Origin: Euglena gracilis
Lineage: Eukaryota
Reading direction: 5' to 3'
Assembly (NCBI GenBank): GCA_039621445.1
Contig: CP154954.1
Coordinates: 46,665,847 to 46,729,846 of the forward strand
DNA: 64,000 nucleotides
The number at the start of each line of letters is the position of its first letter. Position 1 is the stretch's first letter. The position numbers and the translations under genes are program-made. Shown here piece after piece: positions 1-37,930 of the stretch. A model generated the notes under the pieces. That model was not told the DNA's origin, searched no databases, and saw nothing but the letters and a program-made list of their open reading frames with translations.

Positions 1-84
1 CATCTGTGAAGGGGCATAGAGTGGGACCTCCCCCTCCCCAGGCAACCACCCCAGGCCCTTTTCACCTCTCCTTTCCCCCTTTTC

Positions 85-1137
85 TCAGGTTGCCGTTGCC
101 TTTAAATCCTTAGAGACATCCAACGGCAACCCTTTTCCCAGGCAATACGCTATTACGTCACTATTATACTCCTGGAAAAAATGTTCCACCGGTTCCCAAT
201 TCTCCTCCTCAAACCCTTGCCACTTCGTTAAGAAAAACATTTTTCCCTTAACGAACTTGTGGTTTAGGATTTTATCCACTAACCAGGTATCTGAGGCACC
301 TTCCGCCTCAGGTACCGTACGCCGGTGGATAAATAGGGGGATAGGCTTATCAGATGTGGGGTCCTCCACATACACCTTCAAAGCCTTCCGATGGGCCTTC
401 ATAATATAGTCCGGTTTAACCTCAATTAGGTAGGAGTGAATTCCCTCCCTCGCGGTAACCTTGCAAGGGCCCAACCAACGGGAATCCAATTTTGTGCCAC
501 TATCGGGGGGTCTCAGGTACCACACCAGATTCCCCACCTCCAATGGCTCCCAACCGTCTAAACCACGGTTGGCCCGAGCACATTGCTTGGCATGCAAATT
601 ATTCATTTTGCCAGCCACTACGAAATCAGTTTCTCTTTGCCGAGAGAAAAATGATCTGGCATCTTCACAATCCCTTAACGGTTCATAAGGTAAACCACCC
701 AATGAACGGTGTCGACCGAACAAGATTTGAAATGGGCTTAGGCCACTCTCCCCCGGCGTGTCATGGATACGGTCTAGTGCTTGGGGGAGGGCTTCAACCC
801 AATTCAACTTGTCCTCAACCTGAATTTTCTTAAGCCGTTCCATTATTTGTTGGCCAGCCCTCTCCGCCCTACCATCAGCCTGGTGATGGTAGGCCTGGGA
901 ATAGGCTTGCCTAATTCCCATCAAGGCACACATTGTCTGCCACCAACCGGCGACAAAATGTGAGCCTAGATCGGAAGTAATAATGGATGGGACACCAAAG
1001 GTCTCCAAGCATGCAACAGCATTTGCTTGGCTGCCTTGGCTCCCGTAAATCCTTTTGCTAGGTGGGGGATCGCCACTATCCAACCGGAGTGACGATCCAC
1101 ACACACAAGCATGGAGTCGTAAGAATTGCCTTCCCAC
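85..1137 (-). pseudogene. Element A integrase C-terminal core plus chromodomain (frameshifted from the upstream ORF)
   Basis: Integrase motifs ITSDLGSHF, YHHQADGRAERA and SPFQILFGR; SRWLGPCKV; chromodomain WLVDKILNHKFVKGKMFFLTKWQGFEEENWEPVEHF. Confidence 0.92.
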
Positions 1138-2426
1138 TCCACGAGAGGCATGCTAAACATGTCAAGGGCCACCGAATACATTACGGCTGGGGGTATGGGT
1201 GTAGATTCCACTAAACCCTTAAGACTCGCCGGCCTTCGGCACGCTTGGCAAGTCCCACAAAGGCCCATGACTCCTTTAGCAAAATCTCGAGCGAGTGAGG
1301 AATCAGCCCAATCATACCTAAGGGACATGCATTCCCATAGCCTTGGGAATCCCACATGCCCTTGGTATGAGTGGTGATCTCGAATGAGTTTTTCTTGGAG
1401 AGATTTGGGCACACAAAGCCTCTCCTCGAAAAACATTTTGTCACCAAAAACTTTGATATTTTCAGGCCACGGCACCTTTGAATCCTGGGTAGCGTGAAAA
1501 ATTGGTGACCAACGGGGACATTTTAAATATTCCTCCCTCCACGATAAATACCACACAGAACCAGGGGGGATGGGTGAGGAATCGGTTGTAGAAGTGGCTT
1601 CCCCACCCTCACCACTCAAACCACCTGAAGACAACACAGGTGATTCTCGGTCTGCCCCAGGTACCTCAGTGGTAGCCGCGGCAGCAGGTTCAGGGGTTGG
1701 CGTCGTTGGCGAAGCTGGTATAGAAGTGGGTGTCAATCGAAAATGCTCCCCCCTTGGCTCTTGGACCTCCTCCACAAGACTTGTCTCATTCCCAAACTCG
1801 TCAACCCGAGTTGAGAATGAAACATGTTTTCCTTTTTCTCCCTTGGGGGTGGAGGTTGAACCCAAACCCTGGGGTTTTGTTCCTCCAAGTGGTTCTGACT
1901 TCCTATCCCCCGGTCGTGTGCACCGTCCACTCGCGTCCCCGGACCCCGTGGTAGCACCACCCCGTGTGGTGACTCCACCAATGTATGTGTTGGCTGTGGT
2001 TGGTTGGTCCACCAACCGTAGCCACATACATTCGGCTTCCTCCATTTTTTCGGTTTGAATGATTTCCCTCATTTCCTCGGTGTCAAGGGCTGACCCATGC
2101 CTTGAAATGTCCTTCAAGGCTTGGGAGGCCGGGTAAGCGCATCTTGACAACAAATCGGCTACGGTATTCTCCCGCCCTGGGATATACCCAACCGACAGAT
2201 CAAATTTTGATAAAATCTGATGCCACCTAGCCCTTCTCCCAATGGGACCACTTGGTGTGTCTAGAACCTCTCTAGCCCAGGATTCTAGAGCCTTGTGGTC
2301 CGTGAGAACCAGGACGGGCTGCAGCCCAATCCATGATTCCCACTTTTGTAAGGCTAGGATTATGGCATAAGTCTCCTGTTCCCTAGGTGCCCAGTTTCTT
2401 TGGCTGCCCGTTAGCTTCCTACTCAT
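966..2426 (-). pseudogene. Element A RNase H C-terminal half, low-complexity linker, integrase Zn-binding domain and start of core
   Basis: RNase H: REQETYAIILALQKW, LVLTDHKALE, YIPGRENTVADLLSR. Integrase: HHSYQGHVG...CGTCQAC, VALDMF, VCVDRHSGWIVAIP. Confidence 0.92.
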
Positions 2427-3880
2427 GAACTCATGAAGGCGACAGGCACGGTACGCTTGGCCCGTACGTCTTCAGGAGTAGGAGCCCTGTCCTCCCCAAC
2501 CAATTGTTCAAGGGTGGCACCAACCGCATACTGGCTGGCATCCACTCTTAAAACAAATGGTTTGTCTGGCTTAACGTGTTGTAAAATTAATTCACTGCAC
2601 AACAGTGATTTAATTTTTTCAAATGCCTCAATGTCGGATGGTTCCCAAGAAATTCTTTTCTTGGAACCCTTCTTGCCGTCCACTCGAGAAACTTTGAGCT
2701 TATCCTGAAGGCAAGCGACAATGTGGGCATAATCCTTCACATAGGAGGTGTAAATATTTGTGAACCCCAGAAAAGCACGTAGACCCGTGATTGTTTGGGG
2801 TAGCTCCCATTTTTCAATGGCCATAAGCTTTCCAGGGGATGGTTTTCTCACCCCACCACCCAGAACATGGCCACAAAACTCAACTTCTTTTACGAAAAGA
2901 CGGCATTTTCTTTTGTCAGCTACAAATCTGTCTTTTCGTAAAACTTCAGGGACTCTTCGCAAATCCTTGTCGTGTGCTGCGAGTAAATCCTCACCAGGAC
3001 CCACTCGAGCTCCAATCAAAATGTCTTCGATGTAAGGATCGGCCACGTCCCCCACCGGGAAGAGGCGATCCTCCATCATTTGCTGAAACTGCTGGCTTGT
3101 GTTTGTTAGACCCATCACATTAACCCTCCACTGAAAAAGACCGAGGGGGGTACTGCAACATGTGATGGGCCGGCTTTCCGGGTCCAACGGCTGTTGGTGG
3201 AAAGCCTGCCGTAAATCCAAGATGGAAAACATCATGTTTCCACCTTGTTTTACCAGGAGGTCTTCAATTACGGGAAGGGGGTAGGACACACGCCTAGTTT
3301 GACTGTTAGGCCCCCGCATGTCTACCACTCCCCTCCATTCGCCTCCTTTTTTCGGCACCACAAATGTTACGGACAGCCGTTTTGAAACTGTTCCCTTGGG
3401 CAAACGCTCAACAAATTTCCGGTCCCACCATTCCTGGGGGACCTTTTTGTGAGCTTCAAATCTTTCACCGTGTAAGACAAAGGGTTTTTGCCGTGTGGGT
3501 ACAGCCCCCTCCTTCAGAGGAATCTGGGCGTAACCATAAGGTCCCCGAACGGGAGGGTCGGGGGGTACCTCCGTACCCAACACCTCCCCTTCAAAATCCT
3601 GAAAAATTTTATCCCGAAATGCTACCACCCTGGGGTCCTCCTTCTCACCCGAGTCGCGAGCCTGGATTATGGCATTCACTGCCTTGTCCTCGGCTGGCAA
3701 TTCGGTGAAATGCTTGGCTATGGTATGCAATTCCTTCTTGCCAAGGAATTTTGGTTGCATATCAAAGCCTTGCAAGGGTAGGTGCAAATTCATTTTTTGC
3801 AGGTCCAACCACACTTTTTCATTTTCAAGGGACTCCGTGGTTGGTGCGTTTTCAGGGGATTCTCCGAAGTCAGAAACCAC
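2423..3880 (-). pseudogene. Element A reverse transcriptase and RNase H N-terminus
   Basis: RT: FVVPKKGGEWRGVVDMRGPN, FSILDLRQAFHQ, MGLTNTSQQFQ, PYIEDILIG (YxDD altered to YIED), EVEFCGHVL, LRAFLGFTN. RNase H: LRVDASQYAVGATL. Confidence 0.95.
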
Positions 3881-5516
3881 AACCCCAATTCTTTTTGTGA
3901 ATTGTGTTTTTTCTTCCCCTTATGGGATTTCCGTTTCTGATTTCTTGATCCCACCCGTTCAAGAAAGTCAGATTAGGATTGTCAAAAACCAAGGCCTTAT
4001 GGTGTGGGAAAACACCCAAACCATGTTCGGCTAACCATGGAAACGATAATATAGCATCTACCTCAATATCCGCGAGGTAGAATTCCCCTTCGAGGTACAA
4101 GGCCTGGGTGCCCCCCTGCCCCGTACCCCTACGTTGAAATCCTAACTCCAACTTAATACACTGGTCGCCCCCCAAAACACATTGGCCGTTGGCAGCCACC
4201 AGCCGAACTGGCATTCGCGGTGACCTGGCCAAATGTCTTGGGACGATGGACCTTTTGACCAGGTTCACTTGGGCTCCCGTGTCAACCAAAATTCTGAGCT
4301 GCCTGGCATCTCCGTTAGGGAGATACGTCTGCAATAGCATCAAAAGTTGCAGCTCGTTTTCAATGGGCAACACCTGATTAACCTTCAAGGTGTTGGCCAG
4401 ATGACAGCAACGGTCTGGAATTTCCCATTCCTCAAAATGCTGGGAATTTTGGGAAATTTCTTTGGGCTGGCCCCCCAGGATATCCCCAGCACTTAGGAGA
4501 TAATCAATCACCAGGGGGGTTATCCTTCCTTTTTGTCGGGCGGTAAACTTCATTTTTCTGCCCCCCAACAATTCACGGTGCCGGAACTGCCCATTGTCCC
4601 CCATCACCAGGTAAGGGCACGATTCGCCATCACACAACACCGACCGTAATTGTGAAATGGCTGGGCAGCACCAAAAACGTGTGGGCTTTTTATAACCCCA
4701 ATCTGAAAACTGACAATAATCAATGTCGATATAGGGCAGGTTTTTCACCACCTCCCTATTTCGCAAAAGACCAGTGCGGGGGTTCTCCAACCACCACAAC
4801 TTGGGCTGAAAATAATTTATAATTTCCAGGGCTTTCTCCACCAGGGCATCCGCCTGGGAGAAATCCCTTGGTCTGGGGTTATAAGCCGTGGAATAAATAT
4901 TACAGGGGGGACTAGCGGCAATAACCTCAAAAAATCCAACCGGGTATCGCCTGTAGTCCCAGGTCAAAATGTCTGTGTGGGGGTGGAAGTCCGTCCAAGG
5001 AGCATTTTCAATTGACAAAACTTCATACCCCCGTTCTGCCAACCGCCTCCTCACTGAATCTGTGCCAGCAAATAAATCTAATGCCTGAGGTCGCTGGGCT
5101 GATGGTGGGGAGTTGGGCTGTGGCAGGTTTGTATGCAAAATGGGAACCCTTGAACATTTCCCTTCCCTCCAGGAGTATCGGGTCCGATTCAAAAATCTGG
5201 GGGGCTGATCCAAAGAATGTTTCTCACCACACCCCGAATCAGCCATAAAATCCTGTACACCCCAGTTTTTTGAATCAGAAATATTTACACCGTTTTCCTC
5301 ACAGGGGGGAGAGACACGGCCATGGGCAGCCCCCCCCCTTCTCAAACTGCCCCTGGCCCCCCTATTGGGCCCCAGGGGGAGAAGAGGTGGGCCCACCCCC
5401 CTTTGACCATGCACCCCCCTTGCCTGAGGAATTTCGCTGAGTGGTTGGCTGCCCTTTACCCTTGGGCTGCCCCTTGCCTTTTCCATTACTTTGCCAAAAA
5501 TCCTTAGATTTAGCAA
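3870..5516 (-). CDS. Element A Pol N-terminus: C5 DNA-cytosine methyltransferase domain (~4495-5084) fused in frame to aspartic protease (DTG at 4275-4283)
   Basis: Motif I LDLFAGT, motif IV IAASPPC, motif VI WWLENP, motif VIII region IDYCQFSDWGYKKPTRFW. These are followed in the same frame by ILVDTGAQVNLV, VAANGQ and AILSFPWL. Confidence 0.88.
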   Translation of the reverse strand: MLNLRIFGKVMEKARGSPRVKGSQPLSEIPQARGVHGQRGVGPPLLPLGPNRGARGSLRRGGAAHGRVSPPCEENGVNISDSKNWGVQDFMADSGCGEKHSLDQPPRFLNRTRYSWREGKCSRVPILHTNLPQPNSPPSAQRPQALDLFAGTDSVRRRLAERGYEVLSIENAPWTDFHPHTDILTWDYRRYPVGFFEVIAASPPCNIYSTAYNPRPRDFSQADALVEKALEIINYFQPKLWWLENPRTGLLRNREVVKNLPYIDIDYCQFSDWGYKKPTRFWCCPAISQLRSVLCDGESCPYLVMGDNGQFRHRELLGGRKMKFTARQKGRITPLVIDYLLSAGDILGGQPKEISQNSQHFEEWEIPDRCCHLANTLKVNQVLPIENELQLLMLLQTYLPNGDARQLRILVDTGAQVNLVKRSIVPRHLARSPRMPVRLVAANGQCVLGGDQCIKLELGFQRRGTGQGGTQALYLEGEFYLADIEVDAILSFPWLAEHGLGVFPHHKALVFDNPNLTFLNGWDQEIRNGNPIRGRKNTIHKKNWGCGF

Positions 5517-8500
5517 GGGCCTGACTCAGCGGTTTATCACACTCATAAAAATAATGTCCGGGCTCCCCACAGTTGAAGCATGGATATGGGGACCTGCCCC
5601 TACCCGATGCCTGCGGGGTCCAGGTCTTCCACCCCTTGCCTTGCCGGGCTGGGGGTGCTGGACTTTGGGTTCGCGACCGACGAAGAAGGAGACCTGCCCC
5701 GCTGGGCTGACTGGGCTGGCCCCTTATCTCCCTTTGGAGCTGGCTGTGAGGCAGATTTTGAGGTGTGACCCTGCCCCCCGGCTGCTGGTGCTGACATGGA
5801 TGTTGGGGACACCGGGGGGGGTCTGGCCTTTTTCCAACACCTGTATTTTCCCCGAGCCTTTTGTTGTCGATTTGCTGAATAATCTGGGAAAATGGTGCTG
5901 ATTCAAAGCCAAATCCTGCTTCTCCCGAAGAGCTAACTTGCCCTCGGCAAAAGCAAACATTTCTTCAACAGTCATTAGTTGTTCCACCAATTCGGCGTTG
6001 AGGAAATTTTCCATTCCCTGCAATTTCCTTCCATTTACGGCTGTTAATTTCAGTGCCTCTTCCGAAGAACTGAAATAAATAAGGCAAATGTCACCAGGGT
6101 TTTTGATAACCACTTTCCGTGGATCAATCCCCCCAGTGATCTGGCTCACACTCCTTTTTCCCATCCACCGTGGGATTTGGTATCCCTGTGAGCCTGACAA
6201 TGGGTTGTTTACGGGCTCGATTATCCTCCTCTTTTATGCAAAACTTGCTTAAAAAAGGAGGAATTCTTTCCAAGAATAATCTCCGAGCCTCCCCGGCTGT
6301 GGCATCCTTAACATGGTGCCAGGCACTGCAAAATTTAATCCAAAATTCTTGCAGATCCGCCCGGGTTATTTTTCCTTCGTTAACCATGGTTACCTCCTGC
6401 CATATTTTCCGAGCCGTCAGCCCCTTACTCGAGGCATAACGGTTCTGGAATTGGGCCAATATGGTGGGGTAATCTAATTTAGCTCCATTCAGCCGATAGA
6501 ACCTTATTTCCTCCCGGAATCTGGGTCCTAAACATGCCTCAAAAACCTGCAGCTTTTGCGAATCAGAATACGGTTTGCCTGATGTCAACCTATCCCAGTA
6601 AAGATTCCAATCTACTTCAAAATCTTGCCAGGAAATGCTGCCCGTTTCATCAAAATAGGGCTTAGCACCTCCCTGCAAAATTTCGAAAGCTACTGGGTCA
6701 CTGATAAAAGGAAAACCCAACCCGTGACCTGGGTTGGCTGCAGCCCCCCCTGTCCCGATGGGCCTAATCGAGAAAGCAGGGGCTGCGGAAACATGTGGGG
6801 GGACACACAATGACACAGAAGAAACCACTGCCGTGTCTTGCATGTCCTCCAAAACAAATCCCCCCTCAATAACTAAGGGAGGGGAAATGTTTGAACCTGC
6901 AGATTTATTTTGCAAAACATTCAGATCTGAAAAAGATGGGTCAGCACTGGGCACCGTGCTGGCCAGTGAGCTGGAAGGCTGCCCCAGGGGCTGCTGCGGT
7001 CCAGCCGACGGCAGGCCCAGCCCCCTTGGCAGCCCGTGAGCAGGCTGCGGCTGGCCTGCTGGCTGGCCAGGCTGCTGGGCTAGCTGGACGACGGGCTGCT
7101 GGGCCAGCTGCTGCCCAGGCTGTGGCAGCTCCACTGGGTGTAGGGGCTGCTGGCTGCCCTGCCGCAGCCACCACATGTCAGAAATTTTCTGCAAAACTTC
7201 TCTCGGTTCTGCAGTTGGATGTACGGGTCCATTTTTTTGTAAATCCTGCAGCACTTTCTGTAACTCGAAAGTATTCCCCCCAACTTTTGCAAGTCCCTGC
7301 CTGAATTCCTCCACCAGCCCACCAAATTTTATCTCCTGGGAAAAAATCTGCTGATAAACACTCTGAAAATTCTGCTGACAATCCGTCAACAGTTTTTGCA
7401 TTTCTGAGTGCCGTTTCTCTACTTCATCTGAAATATTCTGGTGCAGTTTTTGAATACCCCCACCAAAACCATGGAGGGCCGTATTCATTGCTGAATTTTG
7501 CTCACCCAGCTGGCGAACATAATCAGCGAACTGCTGGAGCCGCTGAGCCTGGCCCTGGACCGTACTACGCAGCGATACCAGGTCAGCCCGAAGTTCAATG
7601 ATTTTGGCAGCAACAACGGCCAGCTCCTGGAGAGTTTCTGCCTCCCCCCCCTGAGCGGGCTGGGCGGCTTTAAAATTCTCAGCAAACCGCTGAAATTTTT
7701 CAAGCACGAGATCCTTAATTGGTAAGGCAGCCACCTGATTTTGCACTTGTTTAAAAAATTCCTGTGGCAGGCTGTCCAAAATTCGTAAAAAATTTTGCCT
7801 CAGGGCCAAAAACTGATCACGGCTCGAAGAAAACTGCTGGGCCAGTTTTTCCTCAAAACTTTTTTCCTGCCCGACAAAAAGTTCAGGTGCCTGTGCGTCA
7901 ATTTTTTGCACAGAAATTTGCACCTGGGCCTCACATTTTTTCTCAAAAAGTTCAAAAATATGGAGGCAGTCAGCCCTGGCCGTTTCTTCGATTCGTGCAG
8001 CTACGTGCTCGACCAGGTGGTTGTCGACAGCGGGGGGTTGTTGCTGCTGCTGCTGCTGCAGAACCCACTCTTCGTTGGCTTTTTCCAAAGCCAAAACCCG
8101 AAAAGTCAGGTGCTGCACAGTCCGCTTGAGGTCTCTGTTGCTTTGTAAAAATTGCCCCCAGGGGTCTTCAAATCCCTGATTTTGTGAACCCCCCCTGGGG
8201 GTGGCTTCAGAACTTTCATAGGCTGGGGGTTGGACCTCCTCCTCACCCCCCTCGATGAAAATATGAGGAGGCTGGGGGCCTGCAGCAGCTGCTGGCTGAC
8301 CGTGATCAACCTCACGGTGCAGCCGTTTTTGCTGAACTTCATCACTACCTGGTGATGAAGCTGGTGTTCGGGGTCGCCGAGTAGAAGTAGAGCTTGGCTG
8401 GTCCTTCGGGTTTTCCTCTGCCTGCTCGACTTCTGCTCCGACCCGTTTGCTGCTGTCCCAGTTATTATTATCGTTTAAGCCCAGCACATTGACCTGTGCT

Positions 8501-9345
8501 TGCTTTTCAAAGAAAACTGGGCTGGGGTTATCACCCCCCTGCCCTGCCGAGGCACTTGCCGTTTCCTTCACCAGCCCATCTACCTGGGATGGTTGGGAAA
8601 ACTGCAAAAATGCTACCGGCTCTTGGGCTGGTGTTGAAGAAACTGGTTGAGCTGGAGGCAAAGGCAATGCAAAAGCGGGTAATGATGGCAGATTCCCTAA
8701 ATTTTGTAACCACGAAAAGTCTGGGAGAGGTTGCAACTCAGGCAGCATAAAACCGTACCCCATATTTTGCAAAGGAAAAACCCCTGAAAAAGGCTCTGGA
8801 AAACACGGTTGGTTGGAAATGACAACCTGGCCATCCCCACCCTGAAATACCAACATCTGTCCCATATTTGTGGGGGTTCTGAGTTCAGCCAAACTGGTTT
8901 CGGGTCCCAACTCCCTGTTCCCCGAAACTCCAATCGTCAGATTTGCCATCTGAGATTGGGCCATTGGCTGATCATCAAAGAAAACATTCTGAGTAGGGAT
9001 TTCCAACCCAAAATTTCCGACTGAAGGCTGAAGGATCAACCTCTGCTTACCATGTTTCACACCCGTGCTGCCATGTCCCCAGGCAGCACTGGGGTGTAGC
9101 GAAAACCCCCGCCCCGGGCCAGTTTCCGGCGTAGGATCGTTTTTTGGCTCCTCGAGCCGACTTGTGTCGGAAATTTCTTCCCATTCTGGCCCCGCCTGTG
9201 GCCGAAACTGGGCCATCATTTCCAAGGAGGAACTTCCCAGTGGACGCTCCCCGACCCCTGAGGGGGGTGTCACTGGGATCTCCAAGGGGGGTGCCTTTGG
9301 GGTTTCAACCCCTCCCTGCTCAGCTGAACCAGTGAGAGCCAACAC
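5362..9345 (-). pseudogene. Element A Gag-like protein (P/Q-rich and coiled-coil N-terminus, capsid-like region, RRM-like segment, CCHC knuckle)
   Basis: The 1073-aa ORF 6124-9345 continues through frameshifts. My translation of 5580-5539 gives CFNCGEPGHYFYEC, followed by a GKGKG-rich tail and TAG at 5362-5364. Confidence 0.8.
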
Positions 9346-10010
9346 CCACCCTGGGTGTCATTTCTCACAGTTTCTGGGCCAAAAAAGGGGGTTTTGGGGA
9401 GAAAAATGGCCTGTGGTTGCCTGAGTTGAGGAGTCCCTCCCCCCTGCCCCTTTTCACACAGATGAGGTGGGGGGAAGACAAACCTCACCTTCTTCAAATG
9501 ACTGATTGTTTTGTTGATCTTCCATTTGCAATTGAAATTCCAAATTCAATACTTGATTGTAATTGAATTGCCACAAAAAGTACAATGGTGCAACCGGTAA
9601 AGAGGAAAACCCTGTGAAAAGAAAGTGATTTTGATGCCCTTGATGGGCAGGTAAATTTAGGATTGAGTGCGCTGATTCCTAAGCGCTCTCAAATCCCAAA
9701 TCCTTGCCCATTGCATCAAAATCAACCAACCCAGGTGAAAATCAAGGTTCCCCCCCTTGATTTTGATAAATTATGCTGAATTCCATCATTATTGAGCTTT
9801 GCAAATCCCTACAAAAACTCCAGGAACTCAGGCGCCAATCTCAGAAAAATCTGTTCCAAGCGCTTGCAAGCGCTCTCACCAAATCCAACATTTTCCCTTA
9901 AAACCAAAGGAAAAATGCATAAAAAGCTTAAAAATATGCTAAATAGACCCAAAATGACCAGTTGGGAATACCTAGCATCACTCAATCTCTCTCCTTGCAC
10001 AACCAAACCA

Positions 10011-10144
10011 TGGGCGCCCTAGGACAGGGAATTTTAATGAAAATCTTTAGAAAGCCTTAAAATTAGAGTTAAACCGCCCTTAAAAAGGCCTTCTAAAAAG
10101 GAAAAACTCCGCCGCCCGGCGGTCGACCTCAAAAGGTCGTCACA
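10011..10144 (-). repeat. Candidate 5' LTR of element A (TG...CA) followed by a PBS-like TGG motif
   Basis: On the minus strand it starts TGTGACG, ends GCGCCCA and is followed by TGGTTTGGTTGTGC. The second LTR is not in the window, so it cannot be confirmed. Confidence 0.45.
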
Positions 10145-11283
10145 CGTGCCAAGCAAGTTCAAGGCGGGAGACTTTGAAGGGACCCATATATTCAACACCC
10201 ATTCCACCGGCACCCATGGCGAGTGTGGCCTTAGATGTTTTCAAAATGCCATTGGCAAAGTATGAGGGGGAAAAGTACAATACCATGGCGGTGTGTGTTG
10301 ACCGGCACTCCGGTTGGATCGTGGCCATACCGTTTTTAGAAAACGCTCAAACATTCGGGGGCTTTTCGGATTCCTTCAATCATTTCTAGTGACCAAGGGA
10401 GTCATTTCGCGAACACATGGTGGCAAACCTTGTGCTCATTTTTGGGACTTCGACAAGCTTTTTCTCAAGGCTACCACCACCAAGCCAACGGGCCGGTGGA
10501 AAGGGGGTCAACAAGTAATGCAGATTTTGACGAAATTCTTTGTGGACGGAAAAATGATTTGGGTTGAGGCTCTACCCCAAACCTTGCACAGGATTCTTGA
10601 TGTGAAGGGGGAGTGTGGTTTTAGCCCATACCAAATTATGACCGGTATGAAACGTCCCTTTGGGGGGGGGGGCCTTACCAAGCACCAAAAGAGTGCCAGG
10701 GTGCCCAACTATTTTTTCATCGAATGAAGCTAATCCATGAAACGGTGGCAAAGGTTTCAAACCATACGCATGGTTTGAGGTCCAAGCTAAAAGGATTAAC
10801 CAAGGTCGAAGGGAAATGGAACCATTAAAAATTGGAACCCATGTGTGGTACAAACGACCTGAGGGTTCGGGTGAAAAATCAAGTTAGAGGTGGATTGGTC
10901 CCGGTATTGTCAAAGCTCGGGAGGGGGAGAGGAGCTATGTTGCGGAAACCAAACTGGGTGTGCAAATTAAGACACACTGAAGTTTTCTAAAGGAGTTCAG
11001 GGAACCACCAGTTTTTGGAAAATGGGTTCCTTTTTATTTTTTCAAACGGACTGAAAAAGAGGATGAGGCAATGCCCGATGAGTGGGAGGTTGAGAAAATT
11101 TTGGCCCACCGTAGGAAGGAGGATTCGTGGGAATTTCTTACCAAGTGGGCTGGTTATGAGGAGGGGGAAGAAACCTGGGATCCTATTGGAATTTCATTAC
11201 GTTCCAGGAATGAGTTTGTTCGGTATTTTGCCCACAAAAATCTGAAGGTGAATTTAATTGGGCAGCTTCAAAAAAGTCTGTGA
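10145..11283 (+). pseudogene. Degenerate integrase-chromodomain of a related gypsy element C, 5'-truncated inside the Zn finger
   Basis: TCQASSRRETLKGPIYSTPIPPAPMASVALDVFKMP, AVCVDRHSGWIVAIP (near-identical to element A), WVEALPQTL, chromodomain EWEVEKILAHRRKEDSWEFLTKWAGYEEGEETWDP; stops and frameshifts present. Confidence 0.88.
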
Positions 11284-13339: not shown

Positions 13340-14872
13340 CTGTCTCTTGAGGTGCCAATCCCCATTCACATTCTGAAACGTTACAAAGCATTCTGAGCGC
13401 CTGACGCATGCTCCCACCAAACCAAAAATTTCCATCCCCCTTGGTACTTGTGCTCAAAATCTTGTAAACATTGGAAAAACCCAATTGTGCTTGTTCTTCT
13501 TCTGAAATCTGAAGGGGGGTCCCATCCCTGGTATGGCATGGGGGTGACACCTGCACTGGGTCTCCCACAACCACATCACCGGTTAAAGTTCTGGGTCTTC
13601 TGCCAAAAGACTTTCTTCATTCAAAGCAACCTCCCACTTTTTGCACAAACCAAAAGAAACATAAATGACCCCTCCCAAAGATGGACTGTCTGCAATTTGC
13701 ACTGAATTGAACCTCGATTTGAGAACCAGAAAAGGTCCTTGCCAGGGGGGGAAAGCTTGGGCCATGATTTTTTTGGCCATGTGAACCAAAACATAGACAT
13801 CTTCTTGAATTTTTGCTGGTACCCTCCCTTTGTTGGAACTCTCAAAATTTTTTCCCCTCAATTCTTTCAATATCTGGGAAGCTCTTTCTTGAATTTCAAT
13901 GTGGGGCAAAGCCAGGAATGGGTGTCTGGGTTTGTCACCGGTTCTGGGGGTAATTCAAACCTCCAAGGTGGTCTTCCCAAAAACATTTCATGGGGTGACA
14001 ACATTGTTGTGGGGGAAACCTGTGAATTCATCAAAAAATGTGCAATACGGAATCAATTGAACCCAATTTTTGTCCTTGGAAGACAGACTGAAAGCTCTCA
14101 TATTCTGCAAAAACATTTTGCGGACATTTCCAACCAAACCGTTTGATCTGCGGTTCCGGGGTAGCGAAAACGATAATTTCACGTCTAGAGCTTTTAACGC
14201 TGTCTGGTAAAAACCACTGGGCTGTCTGAATTGCACGTCGTTGTCAGACCTCACAACGGATGGTTTTCCAAAAACAGCAATCCACCGGTCCAAAATAAGC
14301 CTCAAATCACCTTCTCCGGTTACCGTTTTCTGTGTGGGGATGAATTGGCAAAAATGGGACAAATTATAGACCAAAGTAAGCACATAGTCAATACCATTGT
14401 AGGGGTCCATTTGCATAAAATCCAAACACAAAACTTCACTGCTCACTGTTGAAATCGGTAAAGAACCCACCTTTCATCGGTCACTGGGGCGGTTTTGTTC
14501 TGAAAGGGTGCAAATTTCACAGGTCATCACAATGGCTTTGTAAATTTCCAACATGTCTTTCTTGGATACCTTCGACTGAAAATGGGTCAAAAAGAACAAC
14601 AAAGTCCTTTCAGCACCCACATGGTTGCTTGCCTTGTGACATTCATCCAAACAAACCTTCAGCAAATGAGAGGGAACAACCAACTTTCCTTCGTAATACA
14701 TTGCCTTGGCAGATCTGAACCAGAGCTCATTGTCAGTGAAACAGGGTTTTGAAACCTCCACATTTTCCCAAAATTCTTTCAGTTCTGAATTCAAGTAATC
14801 CTTTTCTGACACTTGCACTCTGTGGGACACACTGAAAATCTTTTGCAAAAACAGGTCAAGCTGCACATCCAT
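13340..14872 (-). pseudogene. Element B integrase (HHCC, core, GPF) and chromodomain
   Basis: ECHKASNHVG...TCEIC, LCLDFMQM, VRSDNDVQF, SNGLVGNV, PPWQGPFLV. The chromodomain NVYKIL/HKYQGGWKFLVWWEH reads across a frameshift near 13455. Confidence 0.85.
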
Positions 14873-14911
14873 TTTCTGAAAAGCGTTCCCTGCTTCTTCC
14901 TCAAAACGAAT

Positions 14912-16240
14912 TTAAAATTTGTTCTCAAAATCAGCACGAGCCAAAACATCACACAATTCATTTTTGCAACCTGCCACAAGAACGATATTCAGTTTGAACT
15001 GGTGCAAAAACACATACATCCTTCTCAGCCTTTTGTTGAGGGGGGGTTCACCCTTCAGAAAAGAGGTGGCTGCCTCATTGTCTGTCATCCACACAATTTG
15101 CAAATTTTGCAAAATACTTGTTTGTGAAGCAGTGGTCAGCACACCACTCAAAATTTGCTTTACCCAGGTTGTGTATTTTTTTATTGCCTCACTCCATTTC
15201 CAGTTGTAGTGGCCCAAGGGCACCAACCTCATTTCACTGGAGTAGTTGTTTTTCAGGGTCCCATCCACTTTTACACAACTTGTTCGAAAATTTTCAGCAA
15301 TTTGTGTTTGTTGGAGGGTTTGCCACTGAAACAAAGTAGAACCTCTCCCAAATCCGAACTTTCAGTCATCAAAACAATCTCTCCTGAACTCCTGGGGGTA
15401 CCTAATACATCAAGGGATGATAATTTCCTTTTCAAAGCGTTCAAATGACTCTCCTCCTTTTCAGTCCACCTCCATTTCACCTTCTTTTCAGAAGATCTGT
15501 CAGTGGGGCTGAGTCAAACGTAAAACCTTTCACGTGTTTGCGATAAAAATTCATGGCCCCCAAAATTCGCCTCAAATCCCTTTGGTTCTTAACTCGAAAA
15601 CTCAGAAGTGGTTCAACGTTTCTTTTGTTTTCCTGCCACATTCCCCATCACAACAAGGAACCCAAGTAGTCAATAGTCTGATTCGGAAAAGAACATTTGC
15701 TCAATTTGATTCTCACGTGGTTCTTTCTGTAAACTTCAAACCACTTTCACAAAAGATACAAATGGTCCTCCTCAGAATTCGCACCACCCCCTGTGTCATC
15801 GAAAAAAGAAACCAGGTGTCCATCTTTCAAAATTTCTCTCACCCTCAAATCCGTTTTGCATTTGGAGGATAGGATTTCGTCAGCTCCTGAAAAATTTCTG
15901 GGGCATTCATCAACCCAAACATCATCCTCTTTGGACGAAAACACCTCCCTGAAGGAATGCAAAATGCAGACAAATTTGCTGCTCTTTTTGTGATTGGGAT
16001 TTGCCAATACCCACTCCTGATGTCCAGGGTACTTTTGAACCGACACTTGGCCAAACTTTCAATCAGGATCTCCAGGTTTGGCAAAAAACCTGCATGCGCT
16101 TTGCTTCTGGAATTCAATTTTCCATAATGAATGACCATCGTTCTGGTACTTGACCCTTTTTTGTCCACCAAAAATGTGGGGCTGCACACCTGGTGGATTT
16201 CACCGACTGGGAATTGCTCAATCAACCCTGACTTTAGCAA
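14912..16240 (-). pseudogene. Element B reverse transcriptase and RNase H
   Basis: RT: SPTFLVDKKG, KSTLDIRSGYWQI, MMFGLMNAPEIFQ, VSFFDDTG. RNase H: IVWMTDNEAA, VAGCKNELCDVLAR. Confidence 0.9.
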
Positions 16241-16999
16241 TTATTCACCCTGAAGGTCAATTTCTTTTTCATCCTCCTGGGGCATGGGCCAACACGTTTG
16301 CCTTAGGGTTTCCCTTCCCATTCATGCTTCAGCTCAATTTCCAGCAAAACAGGCAGGGGGGAAGACTCAGAAATTGTGGGCAGTGGTCCAAAAACATCAG
16401 AAAATTTCACCAAAAGCTCATACAACCTGGGGTGGTTTCTTAATTTCTCAACTTCTTTCTCAAAATCTCCAACTCAGATTCTCAGTAAACAATTTGCTGC
16501 TTTTTTCATCAGCCTTTTCTGGGCCTCCAAAGTCCAAACCTTTTCATGTAAAACTTGGGAAATGCTTTTGAGTTCATCCATCTTGACTGTTGCCTTGGGA
16601 GTCATCACAGATTTTGCAAATTGAACATCTTCCACAGGCTTGGACAGCTGGAAAAACATCATCTCCACATCTCTTCTCGCCTCCTGAAAAAGACGCAGCT
16701 CACTTTCAATGTCCTTTGTCAATTCAGCCAAAAAATTGATGTTTTCATGCTCACTCATTGGTTCAAACACAACCACATTGTCCTACCATTCCTTCGTCTT
16801 TTCTTCTGATTCTTTGGAGGGGACTTTCTCCAAAGGAAAACTTGGACTTTCAAAAGCTTGCCGGGCTGCAGGTGGATTGGCAGACTGTTGTGCATGCTGC
16901 TGGGGGGGAACATCAGGAAGATCTGGGAAATCAACTTGAATTTCATCATCCACTCTGGGGTACTTTCTGATCTCACCTCTCAGTTCATGCAAACTCCAA

Positions 17000-17500
17000 T
17001 TTCTTGAATTTTTCCTGAGCCATCTGACAATTCGGGGTCCAAAAGCTCAAAATCCACTTTGAATTGCACTGTGTCCACCACACTCACAAAAGTGTTCCAC
17101 AGCGGGGAGGGCAGCACCTTTTTGCACCTGTCACCCACAAACAAGGGATCCCCACTTGAAATTTTCACCCTGGCCACCGGTACCCTTTCCAGCAGGGGGG
17201 ACCAGTACTGGTCCACCCAGTCTGGGCACACCAGGACCATTTTTGTTTCTTCAAGGCACAACTTGGTCACCACTTTGCTTAGTTGGCTGAAGGGAGGTTT
17301 GCCCACAGAAACTTGGAAGCACCAATGTAACACAAAATTTTTTCCCATGAATACCTGTAGGCCGAATTCCCTTTCGTCATGTACAAAGACTGTGTGTGGT
17401 TCAGGTGGTTTGCAAAAAGATCAATGCAAACCTAACCCTCAGAAATCTTCAATTCTTCCAAAGCTTTTGACTTCACTGGCTTGACCAAAGTGTAGCTTTC
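17000..17500 (-). pseudogene. Element B Dam-like (phage/DIRS-type) N6-adenine DNA methyltransferase domain
   Basis: Read through the TAG at 17432-17434 and a 1-nt frameshift near 17297: ESYTL...ELKISEG*VCIDLFANHLN...NSAYRYSW...FLWAN/PPFSQLSKVVTKLCLEETKMVLVCPDWVDQYWSPLL. Confidence 0.8.
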
Positions 17501-18617
17501 TGCCTTGAAATGTCTGAAAATTCTTTTGATGGTGTGGTCTCCATCATCGCTCTGAAGTAAAAACTCCTCACCTTCGATGATGATTCTTGGGGGTCTGGTC
17601 AACAACCCTCCAAAAAACTCAATCTCTGTGAAGTCGGTCCCCAAGACTGCCTCAAAGGCACAAGTATCCACCACAACAGCTTTCAGTTTTAAAATCTTGG
17701 GCCCAAACTGCAAACACATCTCACACGTTCCCTCGGAAAAAATGTACTCCCCGTTGCCGATCTGCAGGGGTACCGCAGCACTCCGGGTCCCTTGCCTGCC
17801 CCCTTCTGGGCTGCCGCCTTCTTTTTCTCAAACTTTTCTTTTGACCAACATCTGTCTTCATAATGCCCTTTTTTTGTGACAAAATCGACAGAAAATTGTG
17901 GCTCCAAATCGTAGGGCTGGGGTGTCATCAACTTTTCTTTCACCCTTGCCTTTGCCTTTTCCTTTGCCTTTTCCTTTTCCACCAGATTTTCCACAAAATC
18001 TGTCTGCCCTGATGTCTGCATACATTCTGGGGTGTAATTTTCTCAGCAAAACCAGAAACATTTCCTGTTCACTCATGCCCTGAGGGCTCAACCTGGCCAT
18101 CAAATTGCCCAACTCGATGAAAAGTTTTTTGATGTCTTGTGGTTCAGGGTTTCTGTGAAAGTGCTGGCAGTTTCTCAATGGCGGATCTCAAAGTCATGTC
18201 ATTTTCCAGTGTTGGGAACAATTTTGCAATTTCCAACAGCACTTTTTCAAAACCATCATTCTCTTCCATCACTTTTTCAACCAGTTTTTTCACCTTGGGG
18301 GTGCAACACTCCAACAGCCAATCCTTTTTCTGGACATTTCCAAATGCAACAGCACCAGTTAACCTCAACCATTTGCCAAAATATTTCAAAAACTCTGGCC
18401 AATTTGCACCATCAAACTCTGGCAATTTCACAGGGGGTAATCTTGAACTTTGGGTTGAACTTTGACTGGGGTTGCTGGAGTTTGGTTCCACAATTTGCTT
18501 CAGAAATCTTTCAACCTGGGTGATGGGGTTCACAGGGGTAAACACAGACTGACTGCTGCTGGATGATTTGATTTCCAATTCTTGCAACCTCCTTTCCAAA
18601 TCGTCAATGAAATACAT
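17500..18617 (-). pseudogene. Element B Gag (capsid-like, CCHC) and C-terminal half of the protease
   Basis: KLPEFDGANWPEFL; GKGKG tract; CRFCHKK/GHYEDRC at ~17848-17890; protease flap VPLQIGNGE and AVLGTDF. The catalytic DTG half appears deleted near 17790. Confidence 0.78.
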
Positions 18618-19048
18618 TTCTGCAGATCACTTTCAAAAAACTCAACTACTGGCTCTGAAAACTGGGAGAAACTGGCCAACCCAAAAAGACAAACAAAACT
18701 GAAGAAACCAGAACAGAAAACCAACCACTGGGTTCAGGACCACGTCAGCAAGATGATGAAGATCTTGCCTCCACCAGGATCTTGTTCTGGACAGCAAGGT
18801 GAACAGCAGCACCAGCTGCTTCAATAACCAAGTAACCAATACAACAACTGTTGAATTCTCCACTGAGAACTTGTTGACCACAGCTTGAATGACAACCTCC
18901 TGTTGAAGATGTTGTTCTGTACCAGCAACTCGGTTAACCTTGCCTTCAGGAAGACCAACTTCTGGAACTTCAACAACCAGTGAAACAATGATCAATCTCC
19001 TCGAAGACGTCTTGGACGATTGGAACAACAAACCTCTGCGACCAACTT

Positions 19049-29874: not shown

Positions 29875-30364
29875 ATGATAATGCTGATGGTGATGATGAT
29901 AATAATTACTAACTATTACATTATTACAGCTATTATTGCAAATTATTATTATTATACGCTTATTATTTCTATTCGGGGGGTGGTTCACCCCAGTAGGTAT
30001 AGGTACGCTGTTCCGCCAGGGTTCGGGACCTGGTGCATTGAGAGTGGCCAGACCCCAAACGGGGGGGTAGGTGTCGGAGTTTCGGTCCGACCGACCCGGT
30101 AGGAGCCGCCACGGGCCAAAAATAGGGGACTCCTAAGTACTACTACTACTACTACTACTACTACAAATAATAATAAAGAGTTTTCCCGGGATATGACAGT
30201 CGGTCGACCCGATCTGATGTAAAAGTCTCCCAAGGACAGGGGGTCCCCCCATTGTATGGCATGGGTCCCGGGTCGCGACTGCACACGTAGGTGGGTGCAA
30301 CTGGGGGTCAGACCCCAAATTTGTCGACTTAAGCGTTTTCGTGGCCGTGCAGCCCATGTGTAAA

Positions 30365-37816: not shown

Positions 37817-37930
37817 TCAGCCAAGAAGGACCCTGGGGTACAACATCTCCTGGACGGCCCTCGAATAGAAATAATAAGCGTACCCCTTCATTTCTGTTTT
37901 AACAGAAATACTGACTGCCGTATGGCACAC

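What the first reader, a model, noticed from the sequence alone, without database searches (positions are those of the whole stretch)
4495..5084. C5 DNA-cytosine methyltransferase fused in frame ahead of the protease in a chromovirus-like retrotransposon
Seen: one open frame carries LDLFAGT (motif I), SPPC (catalytic Cys at 4902-4904), WWLENP (VI) and YC...YKKPTRFW (VIII), then the protease LVDTGA. It lies just downstream of the Gag CCHC knuckle. Known: retrotransposon-borne cytosine methyltransferases have been reported in dinoflagellates and charophytes, so the concept has precedent but is rare. The compact ENP-type domain is unlike host DNMT1/DNMT3 (ENV). Inference: this may be an independent capture or a new host lineage, with the enzyme released from the polyprotein to methylate the element's cDNA. 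Motif I reads FAGTD rather than FxGxG, so this copy may be impaired.
Basis: partly seen in the sequence, partly recalled or inferred. Interest (0 to 1): 0.85.

Follow-up and report, generated by a model that had tools for sequence, protein, structure and literature searches.

The report
Virus-type mini cytosine methylase in retrotransposon
A decayed copy of a very abundant jumping gene carries, just ahead of its protease, an unusually small DNA cytosine methyltransferase whose nearest free-standing relatives are genes of viruses of algae and protists, which suggests these elements took a viral enzyme that could mark their own DNA.

Summary
One open frame (5525-3873) carries motif I (5061-5081), the catalytic Pro-Cys (Cys 4902-4904), ENP (4779-4796), KPTR (4671-4718) and then the protease LVDTGA (4272-4289).

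Pfam PF00145 falls just below its cut-off for this copy. However, 29 of 30 aligned relatives match it. The AlphaFold model (pLDDT 92) matches DNMT3 and DNMT1 catalytic domains.

The domain is about 210 aa and has almost no target-recognition region. It belongs to a family with 2440 cluster representatives. Free-standing members of about 200-220 aa sit in viral contigs; 27 of 80 have a double-jelly-roll capsid gene nearby. The best viral structural match is a Tetraselmis virus 1 protein.

Retroelement-borne members form one clade (bootstrap 99). They lie in chromovirus-like polyproteins, often with a Dam domain, and in variable order.

The window copy is dead. Its pol is split over four frames, and it has a private Gly-to-Asp change in motif I. 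The family is very high-copy in the host.

The enzyme is therefore real for the family and virus-like rather than DNMT3-like. Self-methylation of cDNA is inferred, not shown. It probably overlaps the "EpiLTR" elements of a 2026 preprint.

The parts
4452..5105 (-). Compact C5-cytosine methyltransferase domain, about 210 aa. It has motifs I, IV, VI and VIII, a Cys/His-rich mini insert and a C-terminal helix.
   Evidence: PF00145 at 21.0 bits against a cut-off of 22. AlphaFold2 pLDDT 92, pTM 0.88. Foldseek top hits are DNMT3B, DNMT3A and DNMT1, E about 2e-8. 2440 family representatives.
5061..5081 (-). Motif I, LDLFAGT(D). The second Gly of FxGxG is Asp in this copy.
   Evidence: Other copies in the same organism read Gly at this codon (place 5059). 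Among 51 retro-linked relatives: Gly 41, Lys 6, Arg 1, Asn 1, Asp 1 (the window).
4902..4904 (-). Codon of the catalytic Cys of motif IV (SPPC).
   Evidence: Read directly from the sequence. Cys in 51 of 51 retro-linked rows and 76 of 76 free-standing rows.
4779..4796 (-). Motif VI, WWLENP (ENP in place of ENV).
   Evidence: Glu in 51 of 51 and 76 of 76 rows; Pro in 51 of 51 and 75 of 76.
4671..4718 (-). YCQFSDWGYKKPTRFW, the motif VII/VIII region holding the conserved Cys, Lys, Thr and Arg.
   Evidence: Among retro-linked rows: Lys 51 of 51, Thr 51 of 51, Arg 50 of 51.
4572..4640 (-). Mini insert in place of a target-recognition domain (VLCDGESCPY...FRHRE). Together with the Cys of DYC it gives an invariant Cys-Cys-Cys-His set. 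A zinc site is inferred from this.
   Evidence: The three Cys and the His are present in 51 of 51 retro-linked rows. The model shows a small beta hairpin at residues 166-176. Metal binding was not tested.
3873..4350 (-). Aspartic protease part of the same open frame (LVDTGA at 4272-4289).
   Evidence: Relatives P0004, P0012, P0029 and P0036 show [LI]IDTGA/LVDTGA downstream of the methylase.
5106..5525 (-). N-terminal Gly/Arg/Pro-rich leader of the methylase-protease frame. It overlaps the end of the knuckle frame.
5365..5964 (-). Frame holding the Gag CCHC zinc knuckle (5539-5580). It is offset by one base from the methylase frame.
6127..9357 (-). Long upstream open frame (1077 aa), presumed Gag or an upstream ORF. 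It matches no Pfam family.
2426..3919 (-). Reverse transcriptase and the start of RNase H, in a second frame.
   Evidence: RVT_1 2e-15 and RT_RNaseH_2 5e-13.
969..2471 (-). RNase H and the integrase zinc-binding domain, in a third frame.
   Evidence: RT_RNaseH 1.5e-13 and Integrase_H2C2 1.8e-4.
88..1152 (-). Integrase core and C-terminal chromodomain, in a fourth frame. The element runs off the window start.
   Evidence: rve 5.7e-4 and Chromo 1.9e-4, both below their cut-offs. 49-54% identity to the integrase-chromo part of P0155 and P0156, which do pass the cut-offs.

Best explanation
Window 88 to about 9357 (minus strand) is a decayed copy of a very high-copy chromovirus-like Ty3/gypsy retrotransposon. 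Its pol frame begins with a minimal (about 210 aa) C5-cytosine methyltransferase domain directly upstream of the aspartic protease.

The domain belongs to a large family of compact 'PC...ENP(R)...KPTR' methyltransferases. In this family the usual target-recognition domain is reduced to a short Cys/His-rich hairpin. Free-standing members are 195-307-aa genes (stop to stop) in viral contigs, many with a double-jelly-roll capsid gene nearby. The best structural match among viral proteins is a 218-aa Tetraselmis virus 1 protein. Retroelement-borne members form one clade. This fits a single capture of a virus-type enzyme, followed by spread and reshuffling within pol, often together with a Dam domain.

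Inferred mechanism for intact family members:
1. The domain is made as the N-terminal part of Pol, probably after a +1 shift from the knuckle frame.
2. It is packaged with Gag-Pol and freed by the protease.
3. It uses S-adenosylmethionine to methylate cytosines of the element's newly made DNA, or of DNA at the integration site. The copy then carries the host-like or virus-like mark.

The window copy cannot do this. Its pol is split over four frames and motif I carries a private Gly-to-Asp change.

Shown: the fold, the conserved catalytic residues, the fusion, the family, the phylogeny and the decay of this copy. Inferred: catalytic activity, DNA as the substrate, release by the protease, the zinc site, the frameshift and the biological purpose.
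For: Fusion and motifs.

Homology:
- 29 of 30 aligned members match PF00145 at E<=0.01; the best is 1e-9.
- The family profile matches the DNMT1 catalytic domain at 1.6e-5.
- The AlphaFold2 model has pLDDT 92. Its Foldseek top hits are DNMT3B/3A/DNMT1 with probability 1.00 and TM 0.5-0.62.

Conservation: the catalytic Cys, the Glu of ENP, and Lys and Thr of KPTR are in 51 of 51 retro-linked rows, and Arg in 50 of 51. In the 76 free-standing rows Cys, Glu and Thr are in 76, and Lys and Arg in 75. These rows are only about 40-55% identical to the window, which argues for long purifying selection.

Integral part of the elements:
- 26 of 28 long relatives carry RVT_1, 12 carry Chromo and 10 carry Dam.
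- P0151 (75-92% identical, by segment) is one ORF running methylase-protease-RT-RNase H.
- 32 of 51 multi-domain rows start with the methylase.

Copy number: 9446, 10056 and 4591 contigs of three DNA runs lay on the 9.6-kb stretch at >=85% identity.

Viral kin:
- At least 375 viral contigs encode relatives, against only 2 contigs among 185,579 prokaryotic species genomes.
- 34 of 34 full-length viral ORFs are 195-307 aa.
- One capsid gene matches Capsid_N, and 27 of 80 viral loci hold a homologue of it.
- The Tetraselmis virus 1 protein matches at TM 0.79, E 2e-17.

One clade: the 38 retro-linked rows lie on one side of a branch with ultrafast bootstrap 99 and SH-aLRT 92.

Decay of this copy.
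Against: - No activity data exist for any member of this compact family in what I could read.
- In the only published test, the Klebsormidium Gypsy and Symbiodinium LINE methylase domains gave no detectable methylation in yeast. The authors called that result inconclusive (PMC5890265, section 10).
- PF00145 covers only the first third of its profile. Motifs IX and X and a target-recognition domain are not detected by sequence.
- The window copy is below the Pfam cut-off.
- CpG observed/expected in the element (0.52) is no lower than in the rest of the window (0.55-0.58). There is therefore no element-specific footprint of CpG methylation.
- The tree root rests on two very long outgroup branches, so the direction of transfer (virus to element) rests on parsimony only.
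- 41 fragmentary rows of unknown context and random subsets of the other rows were left out of the 80-row tree.
- Only four viral loci had neighbours checked against Pfam.
- No LTR was found. The 3' end is off the window, and no repeat of 8900-10300 occurs in the window.
Confidence: 0.72

Rival explanations
1. The domain is a host-derived DNMT3-type capture. That would make it the same kind as KnitGypsy-Dnmt3 of Klebsormidium or SymbioDIRS-Dnmt3, merely shortened.
For: The top Foldseek matches in the PDB are DNMT3B and DNMT3A. Gypsy elements with a divergent, intronless Dnmt3-like domain in pol are published (PMC5890265, section 9).
Against: - DNMT1 chains score almost the same, and DNMT1 leads the sequence searches.
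- The much closer matches are 200-220-aa viral proteins: TM 0.79 for Tetraselmis virus 1 against 0.5-0.62 for DNMT3.
- Free-standing relatives at 33-46% identity are in viral and marine contigs.
- The ENP and KPTR signatures are shared with those viral proteins, not with ENV/QxRxR.
Confidence: 0.08
2. The domain methylates RNA rather than DNA. The target would be the element's genomic RNA or its primer tRNA, as DNMT2 and DNMT6 act on RNA with the same fold.
For: The fold cannot tell RNA-acting from DNA-acting members. The enzyme lacks a normal DNA target-recognition domain. It would be packaged next to genomic RNA.
Against: Free-standing relatives sit in DNA viruses and phages, where such genes are annotated as DNA methylases. 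Many retro-linked relatives pair it with a DNA adenine methylase domain.
Confidence: 0.08
3. The methylase fold is kept as a non-catalytic module, for example a DNA- or SAM-binding spacer in Gag-Pol. Methylation would then be irrelevant.
For: Activity has not been shown for any family member. In the window copy motif I is altered.
Against: The nucleophile Cys, the Glu of ENP and the Lys and Thr of KPTR are kept in 51 of 51 retro-linked rows, the Arg in 50 of 51, and Phe and the first Gly of motif I in 50 of 51. That pattern is hard to explain without catalysis. The window's change is private to a dead copy.
Confidence: 0.07
4. The fusion is an artefact. Either a viral methylase gene was inserted into one retroelement copy, or an assembly chimera was read through by chance.
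For: The window copy is broken in several places. Mixed or nested elements are reported for some hosts (bioRxiv 10.64898/2026.05.21.726589, section 7).
Against: The same fusion occurs in 50 other proteins or ORFs from independent assemblies. It also occurs in P0151 as one ORF. Thousands of contigs from three separate DNA runs cover the junctions.
Confidence: 0.02

Closest known systems
EpiLTRs of Euglena gracilis and Cymbomonas tetramitiformis (bioRxiv 10.64898/2026.05.21.726589; sections 7 and 8 and passages read)
   Same: These are LTR retrotransposons with a chromodomain and a cytosine methylase in pol. 10 of 28 long relatives of the window's domain also carry Dam, and 12 carry Chromo. An example is P0156: methylase, Dam, RT, RNase H, integrase, chromo.
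   Different: - The window element has no Dam. P0156 residues 213-383 find nothing in it, and Pfam finds none.
- The preprint places its DNMTs as sister to DNMT4 and, in Cymbomonas, at the 3' end of pol. Here the domain is at the 5' end of pol and its nearest kin are viral.
- I could not test whether the two DNMT sets are the same family. The figures and supplements were not available.
KnitGypsy-Dnmt3 of Klebsormidium nitens (PMC5890265, section 9 read)
   Same: A DNMT domain inside the Pol polyprotein of a Ty3/gypsy-type element, with conserved catalytic residues.
   Different: That domain is described as Dnmt3-related and host-derived. Here the domain is about 210 aa, of ENP/KPTR type, and sister to free-standing viral enzymes. 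No sequence comparison was possible.
SymbioLINE-Dnmt and SymbioDIRS-Dnmt3 of Symbiodinium (PMC5890265, sections 6, 7 and 10 read)
   Same: Retrotransposon-borne C5 methylases. The proposed role is self-methylation of retrotranscribed DNA. The DIRS versions methylate CG de novo in yeast.
   Different: They belong to different element classes: LINE ORF1 and DIRS pol. SymbioLINE-Dnmt is an orphan lineage whose relation to this family I could not test.
Putative cytosine DNA methyltransferase of Tetraselmis virus 1 (UniProt A0A2P0VN45, 218 aa), and free-standing homologues in viral contigs
   Same: The same compact architecture over the whole length: TM 0.79 both ways, rmsd 2.9, 31% identity. The viral-contig ORFs are 195-307 aa and share the PC, ENP and K.TR motifs and the three Cys.
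   Different: These are free-standing genes of DNA viruses, not part of a polyprotein. They form the sister group, not the same clade.
Bacillus phage JBP901 gp140 (221 aa) and Haloferax tailed virus 1 gp60 (218 aa)
   Same: Compact proteins of about 220 aa, annotated as C5 or DNA methylases, with PC and ENPR-like motifs.
   Different: They are only 25-35% identical and cover residues 2-163 of the query. In the printout they read KPTD where the family reads KPTR. They served as the outgroup and sit on very long branches.

Membership tests
C-5 cytosine DNA methyltransferase (Pfam PF00145 DNA_methylase) | Profile match at or above the curated cut-off (22 bits) | tested here: inconclusive
   The window scores 18.3 bits for the ORF and 21.0 bits for the domain alone, both below the cut-off. 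29 of 30 aligned members match at E<=0.01, best 1e-9. Relatives P0034, P0025, P0051, P0156 and P0160 pass at 25-29 bits. Only profile positions about 2-118 of 324 are matched.
C-5 cytosine DNA methyltransferase (Pfam PF00145 DNA_methylase) | Motif I, FxGxG (SAM binding) | tested here: inconclusive
   The window reads F-A-G-T-D. Phe and the first Gly are present, and the second Gly is Asp. The family has Gly in 41 of 51 retro-linked rows. Other copies in the host read Gly.
C-5 cytosine DNA methyltransferase (Pfam PF00145 DNA_methylase) | Motif IV Pro-Cys with the catalytic Cys | tested here: met
   SPPC, with the Cys codon at 4904-4902. Cys in 51 of 51 and 76 of 76 rows.
C-5 cytosine DNA methyltransferase (Pfam PF00145 DNA_methylase) | Motif VI ENV with the Glu that contacts the target cytosine (role recalled from M.HhaI work) | tested here: met
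   ENP. Glu in 51 of 51 and 76 of 76 rows; the third position is Pro instead of Val.
C-5 cytosine DNA methyltransferase (Pfam PF00145 DNA_methylase) | Motif VIII Arg (QxRxR) | tested here: inconclusive
   KKPTRFW has one Arg that is conserved in 50 of 51 and 75 of 76 rows. Its equivalence to the motif VIII Arg rests on position only.
C-5 cytosine DNA methyltransferase (Pfam PF00145 DNA_methylase) | Target-recognition domain and motifs IX and X | tested here: not met
   No profile match beyond motif VI-VIII. Only about 60 residues follow KPTR, forming a hairpin and two helices. The last helix may stand in for motif X; that is an inference.
C-5 cytosine DNA methyltransferase (Pfam PF00145 DNA_methylase) | Class I methyltransferase fold of DNMT catalytic domains | tested here: met
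   pLDDT 92. Foldseek against the PDB gives DNMT3B, DNMT3A and DNMT1 at probability 1.00, E 2e-8 to 4e-7.
C-5 cytosine DNA methyltransferase (Pfam PF00145 DNA_methylase) | Transfer of a methyl group to C5 of cytosine in DNA | not testable with these tools
   This needs expression followed by bisulfite or enzymatic conversion sequencing.
Chromovirus (Ty3/gypsy LTR retrotransposon with a chromodomain) | Pol order protease, RT, RNase H, integrase, C-terminal chromodomain | tested here: met
   LVDTGA, RVT_1, RT_RNaseH, Integrase_H2C2, rve and Chromo lie in that order on the minus strand. rve and Chromo are below their cut-offs here but pass in relatives P0155 and P0156, which align along the whole pol.
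Chromovirus (Ty3/gypsy LTR retrotransposon with a chromodomain) | Long terminal repeats | tested here: inconclusive
   The 3' end runs off the window start. No second copy of 8900-10300 occurs in the window. Summed contig depth rises about threefold at 8961-9600, which is only a hint.
EpiLTR (chromodomain, Dam and DNMT in one LTR element) | Dam (PF05869) domain in the same element | tested here: not met
   No Dam match in any of the six element ORFs. The Dam part of P0156 finds nothing in 88-9357. The methylase and the protease motif are about 75 residues apart. Across relatives this spacing ranges from 43 to 212 residues.
EpiLTR (chromodomain, Dam and DNMT in one LTR element) | DNMT of the clade described as sister to DNMT4 | not testable with these tools
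   The sequences are in the preprint's figures and supplements, which I could not see.

The most novel reading that the evidence does not exclude
Chromovirus-like retrotransposons captured, once, a minimal (about 200 aa) C5-cytosine methyltransferase of the kind carried by polinton-like and giant viruses of algae. In this enzyme the target-recognition domain is replaced by a small Cys3-His, probably zinc-bound, hairpin. The capture founded a globally distributed clade of LTR elements that mark their own DNA. It would be independent of every host DNMT1-6-derived capture described so far. The methylase has since been moved around pol and combined with Dam repeatedly. If the enzyme is active, it would be among the smallest self-sufficient DNA cytosine methyltransferases (my recollection of known sizes, not a search result).
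Probability: 0.35. Interest if true: 0.75.

Novelty: new variant of a known kind. Interest (0 to 1): 0.58.

Why it matters
Retrotransposons that carry their own DNA methylase are rare. They are a direct handle on how mobile elements manipulate, rather than merely suffer, host epigenetic silencing.

The published cases are described as host-derived (Dnmt3) or as orphans. Here the enzyme's nearest free-standing kin are genes of eukaryotic DNA viruses. That links two kinds of genomic parasite through a shared self-marking tool.

The family is large (2440 cluster representatives), mostly unannotated, and sits near or below the Pfam cut-off. Surveys based on PF00145 would undercount it.

Its very small size and missing recognition domain make it a tractable test case for what a cytosine methylase minimally needs. 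The window copy itself is a dead relic and has no functional importance.

Tried and rejected
**Host identity.** No whole genome is held. There are no RNA genes or tRNAs in the window. Ten long ORFs elsewhere gave only sub-threshold Pfam matches. Three protein searches and a cluster look-up returned no organism names apart from one partial Genlisea aurea record.

**Earlier findings.** Three look-ups returned nothing.

**dN/dS.** Not possible. There is only one copy in the window, the related loci are too divergent (36-54% identity), and DNA for P0151 could not be fetched.

As a substitute I classed the 37 of 40 displayed differences that fall in the open frames (436 were found in all) between the window copy and the bulk of the other copies. 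14 are synonymous and 23 are not, and codon positions are 11/11/15. That looks like neutral decay of this one copy and says nothing about selection on the family.

**Expression.** Run X15 covers the element with contigs of up to 1364 bases, but its RNA label is a guess. No verdict on expression.

**CpG footprint.** The element (0.52) is not lower than its surroundings.

**LTR search.** No repeat of 8900-10300 in the window.

**Gag-like ORFs.** No similarity to any fetched protein.

**Cultured phages.** Only distant matches: 33 records, all under 60% identity, and none covers 80% of the query.

**Literature searches.** 'LTR retrotransposon / DNA methyltransferase domain / chromodomain / polyprotein' and 'polinton-like virus / cytosine methyltransferase' found no description of this compact family in retroelements beyond the 2026 preprint. 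PMC6459981 mentions a putative cytosine methylase in one polinton-like virus (passages read).
Full report
**What is in the sequence.**

The finding's coordinates are correct, but the feature is on the minus strand. The plus-strand reading of 4495-5084 is full of stops.

The minus-strand ORF 5516-3870 is 548 aa, or 5525-3873 stop to stop. In one frame it reads:
- LDLFAGT at 5061-5081
- AASPPCNIYS, with the Cys codon at 4904-4902
- WWLENP at 4779-4796
- YCQFSDWGYKKPTRFW at 4671-4718
- a Cys/His-rich stretch and a terminal helix reaching about 4494
- about 75 residues later, the protease motif LVDTGA at 4272-4289

The CCHC knuckle (5580-5539) is upstream, in a frame offset by one base (5964-5365) that overlaps the start of the methylase frame.

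Downstream on the same strand lie RT, RNase H, the integrase zinc domain, the integrase core and a chromodomain. The element runs off the window start. No LTR could be shown.

**Is it a cytosine methylase?**

For this copy PF00145 is just below its cut-off: 18.3 bits for the ORF and 21.0 for the domain, against 22. It covers only the first third of the profile. Other evidence is stronger:
- A search of 1.84 billion cluster representatives found 2440 relatives at E<=1e-3 and 152 at E<=1e-30.
- 29 of 30 aligned members match PF00145, with a best E-value of 1e-9.
- The family profile finds the DNMT1 catalytic domain at 1.6e-5.
- An AlphaFold2 model built on the alignment has pLDDT 92 and pTM 0.88. 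Its best PDB matches are DNMT3B, DNMT3A and DNMT1 catalytic domains (probability 1.00, E about 2e-8, TM 0.5-0.62).

The catalytic residues are conserved. The catalytic Cys, the Glu of ENP, and the Lys and Thr of KPTR are present in 51 of 51 retroelement-linked rows. The Arg of KPTR is present in 50 of 51. In the 76 free-standing rows, Cys, Glu and Thr are present in all 76, and Lys and Arg in 75.

Three further Cys and one His are also invariant in the 51 retro-linked rows. They lie in and around the short insert that stands where a target-recognition domain should be. I infer a small zinc-bound hairpin there; this was not tested.

So the fold and the catalytic core are met. A normal recognition domain and motifs IX and X are not.

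**It belongs to the element.**

- Of 28 long relatives (960-2740 aa), 26 carry RVT_1, 12 carry Chromo and 10 carry Dam.
- P0156 reads methylase, Dam, RT, RNase H, integrase, chromo in one protein.
- P0151 is 75-92% identical to the window product, depending on the segment. It is one ORF from methylase through protease and RT to RNase H.

Among 51 proteins or ORFs with the methylase plus at least one other element domain:
- 32 start with the methylase; the window's order is the commonest, with nine full examples
- 13 have it between protease and RT
- 4 have it after RNase H
- 2 have other orders

These calls rest on single-sequence phmmer queries and on many partial proteins, so the exact counts are rough. 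The variability itself is clear.

**Where the enzyme came from.**

Scans of public collections gave:
- at least 526 relatives in metagenome contigs
- at least 375 relatives in viral contigs
- 2 relatives, both on short contigs of metagenome-assembled genomes, among one genome each of 185,579 prokaryotic species

In the viral contigs the homologue is a free-standing gene. All 34 full-length cases are ORFs of 195-307 aa, as are 40 of 43 full-length cases in the metagenome loci.

I examined the neighbours in four viral loci. They include a capsid protein that matches Capsid_N (the nucleocytoplasmic-virus type), D5-like primase-helicases, and ribonucleotide reductase with an SNF2 helicase. Homologues of that capsid gene lie within 8 kb of the methylase in 27 of 80 viral loci. 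Median GC of these loci is 0.32.

The best structural match among viral proteins is the 218-aa putative cytosine DNA methyltransferase of Tetraselmis virus 1 (TM 0.79 both ways, E 2e-17). Cultured phages give only distant matches.

I built a careful maximum-likelihood tree of 80 rows: 38 retro-linked, 40 free-standing and 2 outgroup phage or archaeal-virus proteins. All 41 rows of unknown context and random subsets of the other rows were left out. In this tree the retro-linked rows form one side of a branch with ultrafast bootstrap 99 and SH-aLRT 92. The free-standing rows form the other side, with support 94 and 85 (quick tree).

A FastTree of all 168 rows agrees. All 51 retro-linked rows, 28 fragments and one other row lie behind one branch with support 95.

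The root rests on two very long branches. A virus-to-element direction is therefore a parsimony argument, not a demonstrated result.

**State of the window copy.**

Single-ORF relatives align to the window in four successive frames, with breaks near 3.9 kb, 2.43 kb and 1.0 kb. The upstream Gag-like region is also split.

I laid the contigs of three DNA runs of the coded host on 1-9600. 9446, 10056 and 4591 contigs matched at >=85% identity, so the family is very abundant there. Small indel differences among copies occur at or near the places where the window's frame breaks.

I classed the 37 of 40 displayed differences that fall in the open frames (436 were found in all). 14 are synonymous and 23 are not, with no codon-position bias. 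That is what a dead copy would show.

**Mechanism.**

For intact family members I propose the following. The domain is translated at the head of Pol, probably after a +1 shift out of the knuckle frame. It travels into particles with Gag-Pol and is cut free by the adjacent protease. It then methylates cytosines of the newly made DNA copy or of DNA at the integration site.

This is the model proposed for other DNMT-bearing retrotransposons (PMC5890265, sections 7 and 10). In that paper two DIRS-borne domains methylated CG in yeast, while the Gypsy-borne and LINE-borne domains gave no signal; the authors called those negative results inconclusive.

Nothing in my data shows activity, substrate or sequence context. 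CpG depletion of the element (0.52) equals that of its surroundings (0.55-0.58), so it carries no signal specific to the element.

**Comparison with what is known.**

Retrotransposon-borne DNMTs are published for Symbiodinium LINE and DIRS elements and for a Klebsormidium Gypsy element (PMC5890265).

A May 2026 preprint describes EpiLTRs in Euglena gracilis and Cymbomonas. These have a chromodomain, Dam and a DNMT in one LTR element, and their DNMT is placed sister to DNMT4 (bioRxiv 10.64898/2026.05.21.726589, sections 7 and 8).

Many relatives of the window's domain have exactly that triple content, so overlap with the Euglena elements is likely. The window element itself lacks Dam. I could not compare sequences because figures and supplements were not available.

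The following appear new relative to the text I could read:
- the compact, virus-type nature of the enzyme
- its sister relation to free-standing genes of eukaryotic DNA viruses
- the size and environmental spread of the clade
- the mobility of the module within pol

A 2025 survey searched PF00145 at E<1e-4 (PMC12344493, methods passage). By that criterion the window's own domain would be missed.

**Verdict.**

This is a dead copy of a member of a large clade of chromovirus-like elements carrying a virus-type minimal cytosine methylase. Self-methylation is plausible but untested.

Noticed in passing
window 14501-18626 (minus strand): A second, more degraded LTR retroelement. It has a Gag-like frame, a protease-like stretch (VVDTCAF), a stretch similar to residues 176-359 of P0162 (which weakly match Dam, E 0.0014), and then RT, RNase H and the integrase zinc domain. 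It has no cytosine methylase. It looks like a protease-Dam-RT element next to the methylase-bearing one.
   Followed up: partly
window 10147-11280 (plus strand): An integrase-chromodomain fragment of a related element in the opposite orientation. It is 47-68% identical to the C-terminal part of P0156 and abuts the upstream end of the main element.
   Followed up: partly
window 30312-37900: A tandem satellite with a period of about 206 bp and at least 36 copies. Most are 95-100% identical to the reference copy. GC is 0.58, CC/GG is strongly over-represented (1.82), and CT and GA are depleted.
   Followed up: no
window 6127-9357 (minus strand): The upstream ORF of the element is unusually long (1077 aa), Gln/Pro-rich, and has a coiled-coil-like middle. 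It matches no Pfam family and nothing among the relatives fetched. In the run guessed to be RNA, summed contig depth is higher over 5441-8640 than over pol.
   Followed up: partly
L003 (metagenome locus), 412-4221: A relative in which the compact methylase sits between RNase H and the integrase rather than ahead of the protease. This shows the module has moved within pol.
   Followed up: partly
whole window: CpG observed/expected is 0.52-0.60 everywhere, and TA is strongly depleted (0.39-0.67). This fits a host with genome-wide CpG methylation. No host gene could be recognised in 64 kb.
   Followed up: partly
L163 (Bacillus phage JBP901, record 88184-90919): Three adjacent genes are annotated as C-5 cytosine methylases I, II and III. 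The middle one (221 aa) is the compact type that is distantly related to the window's domain.
   Followed up: no
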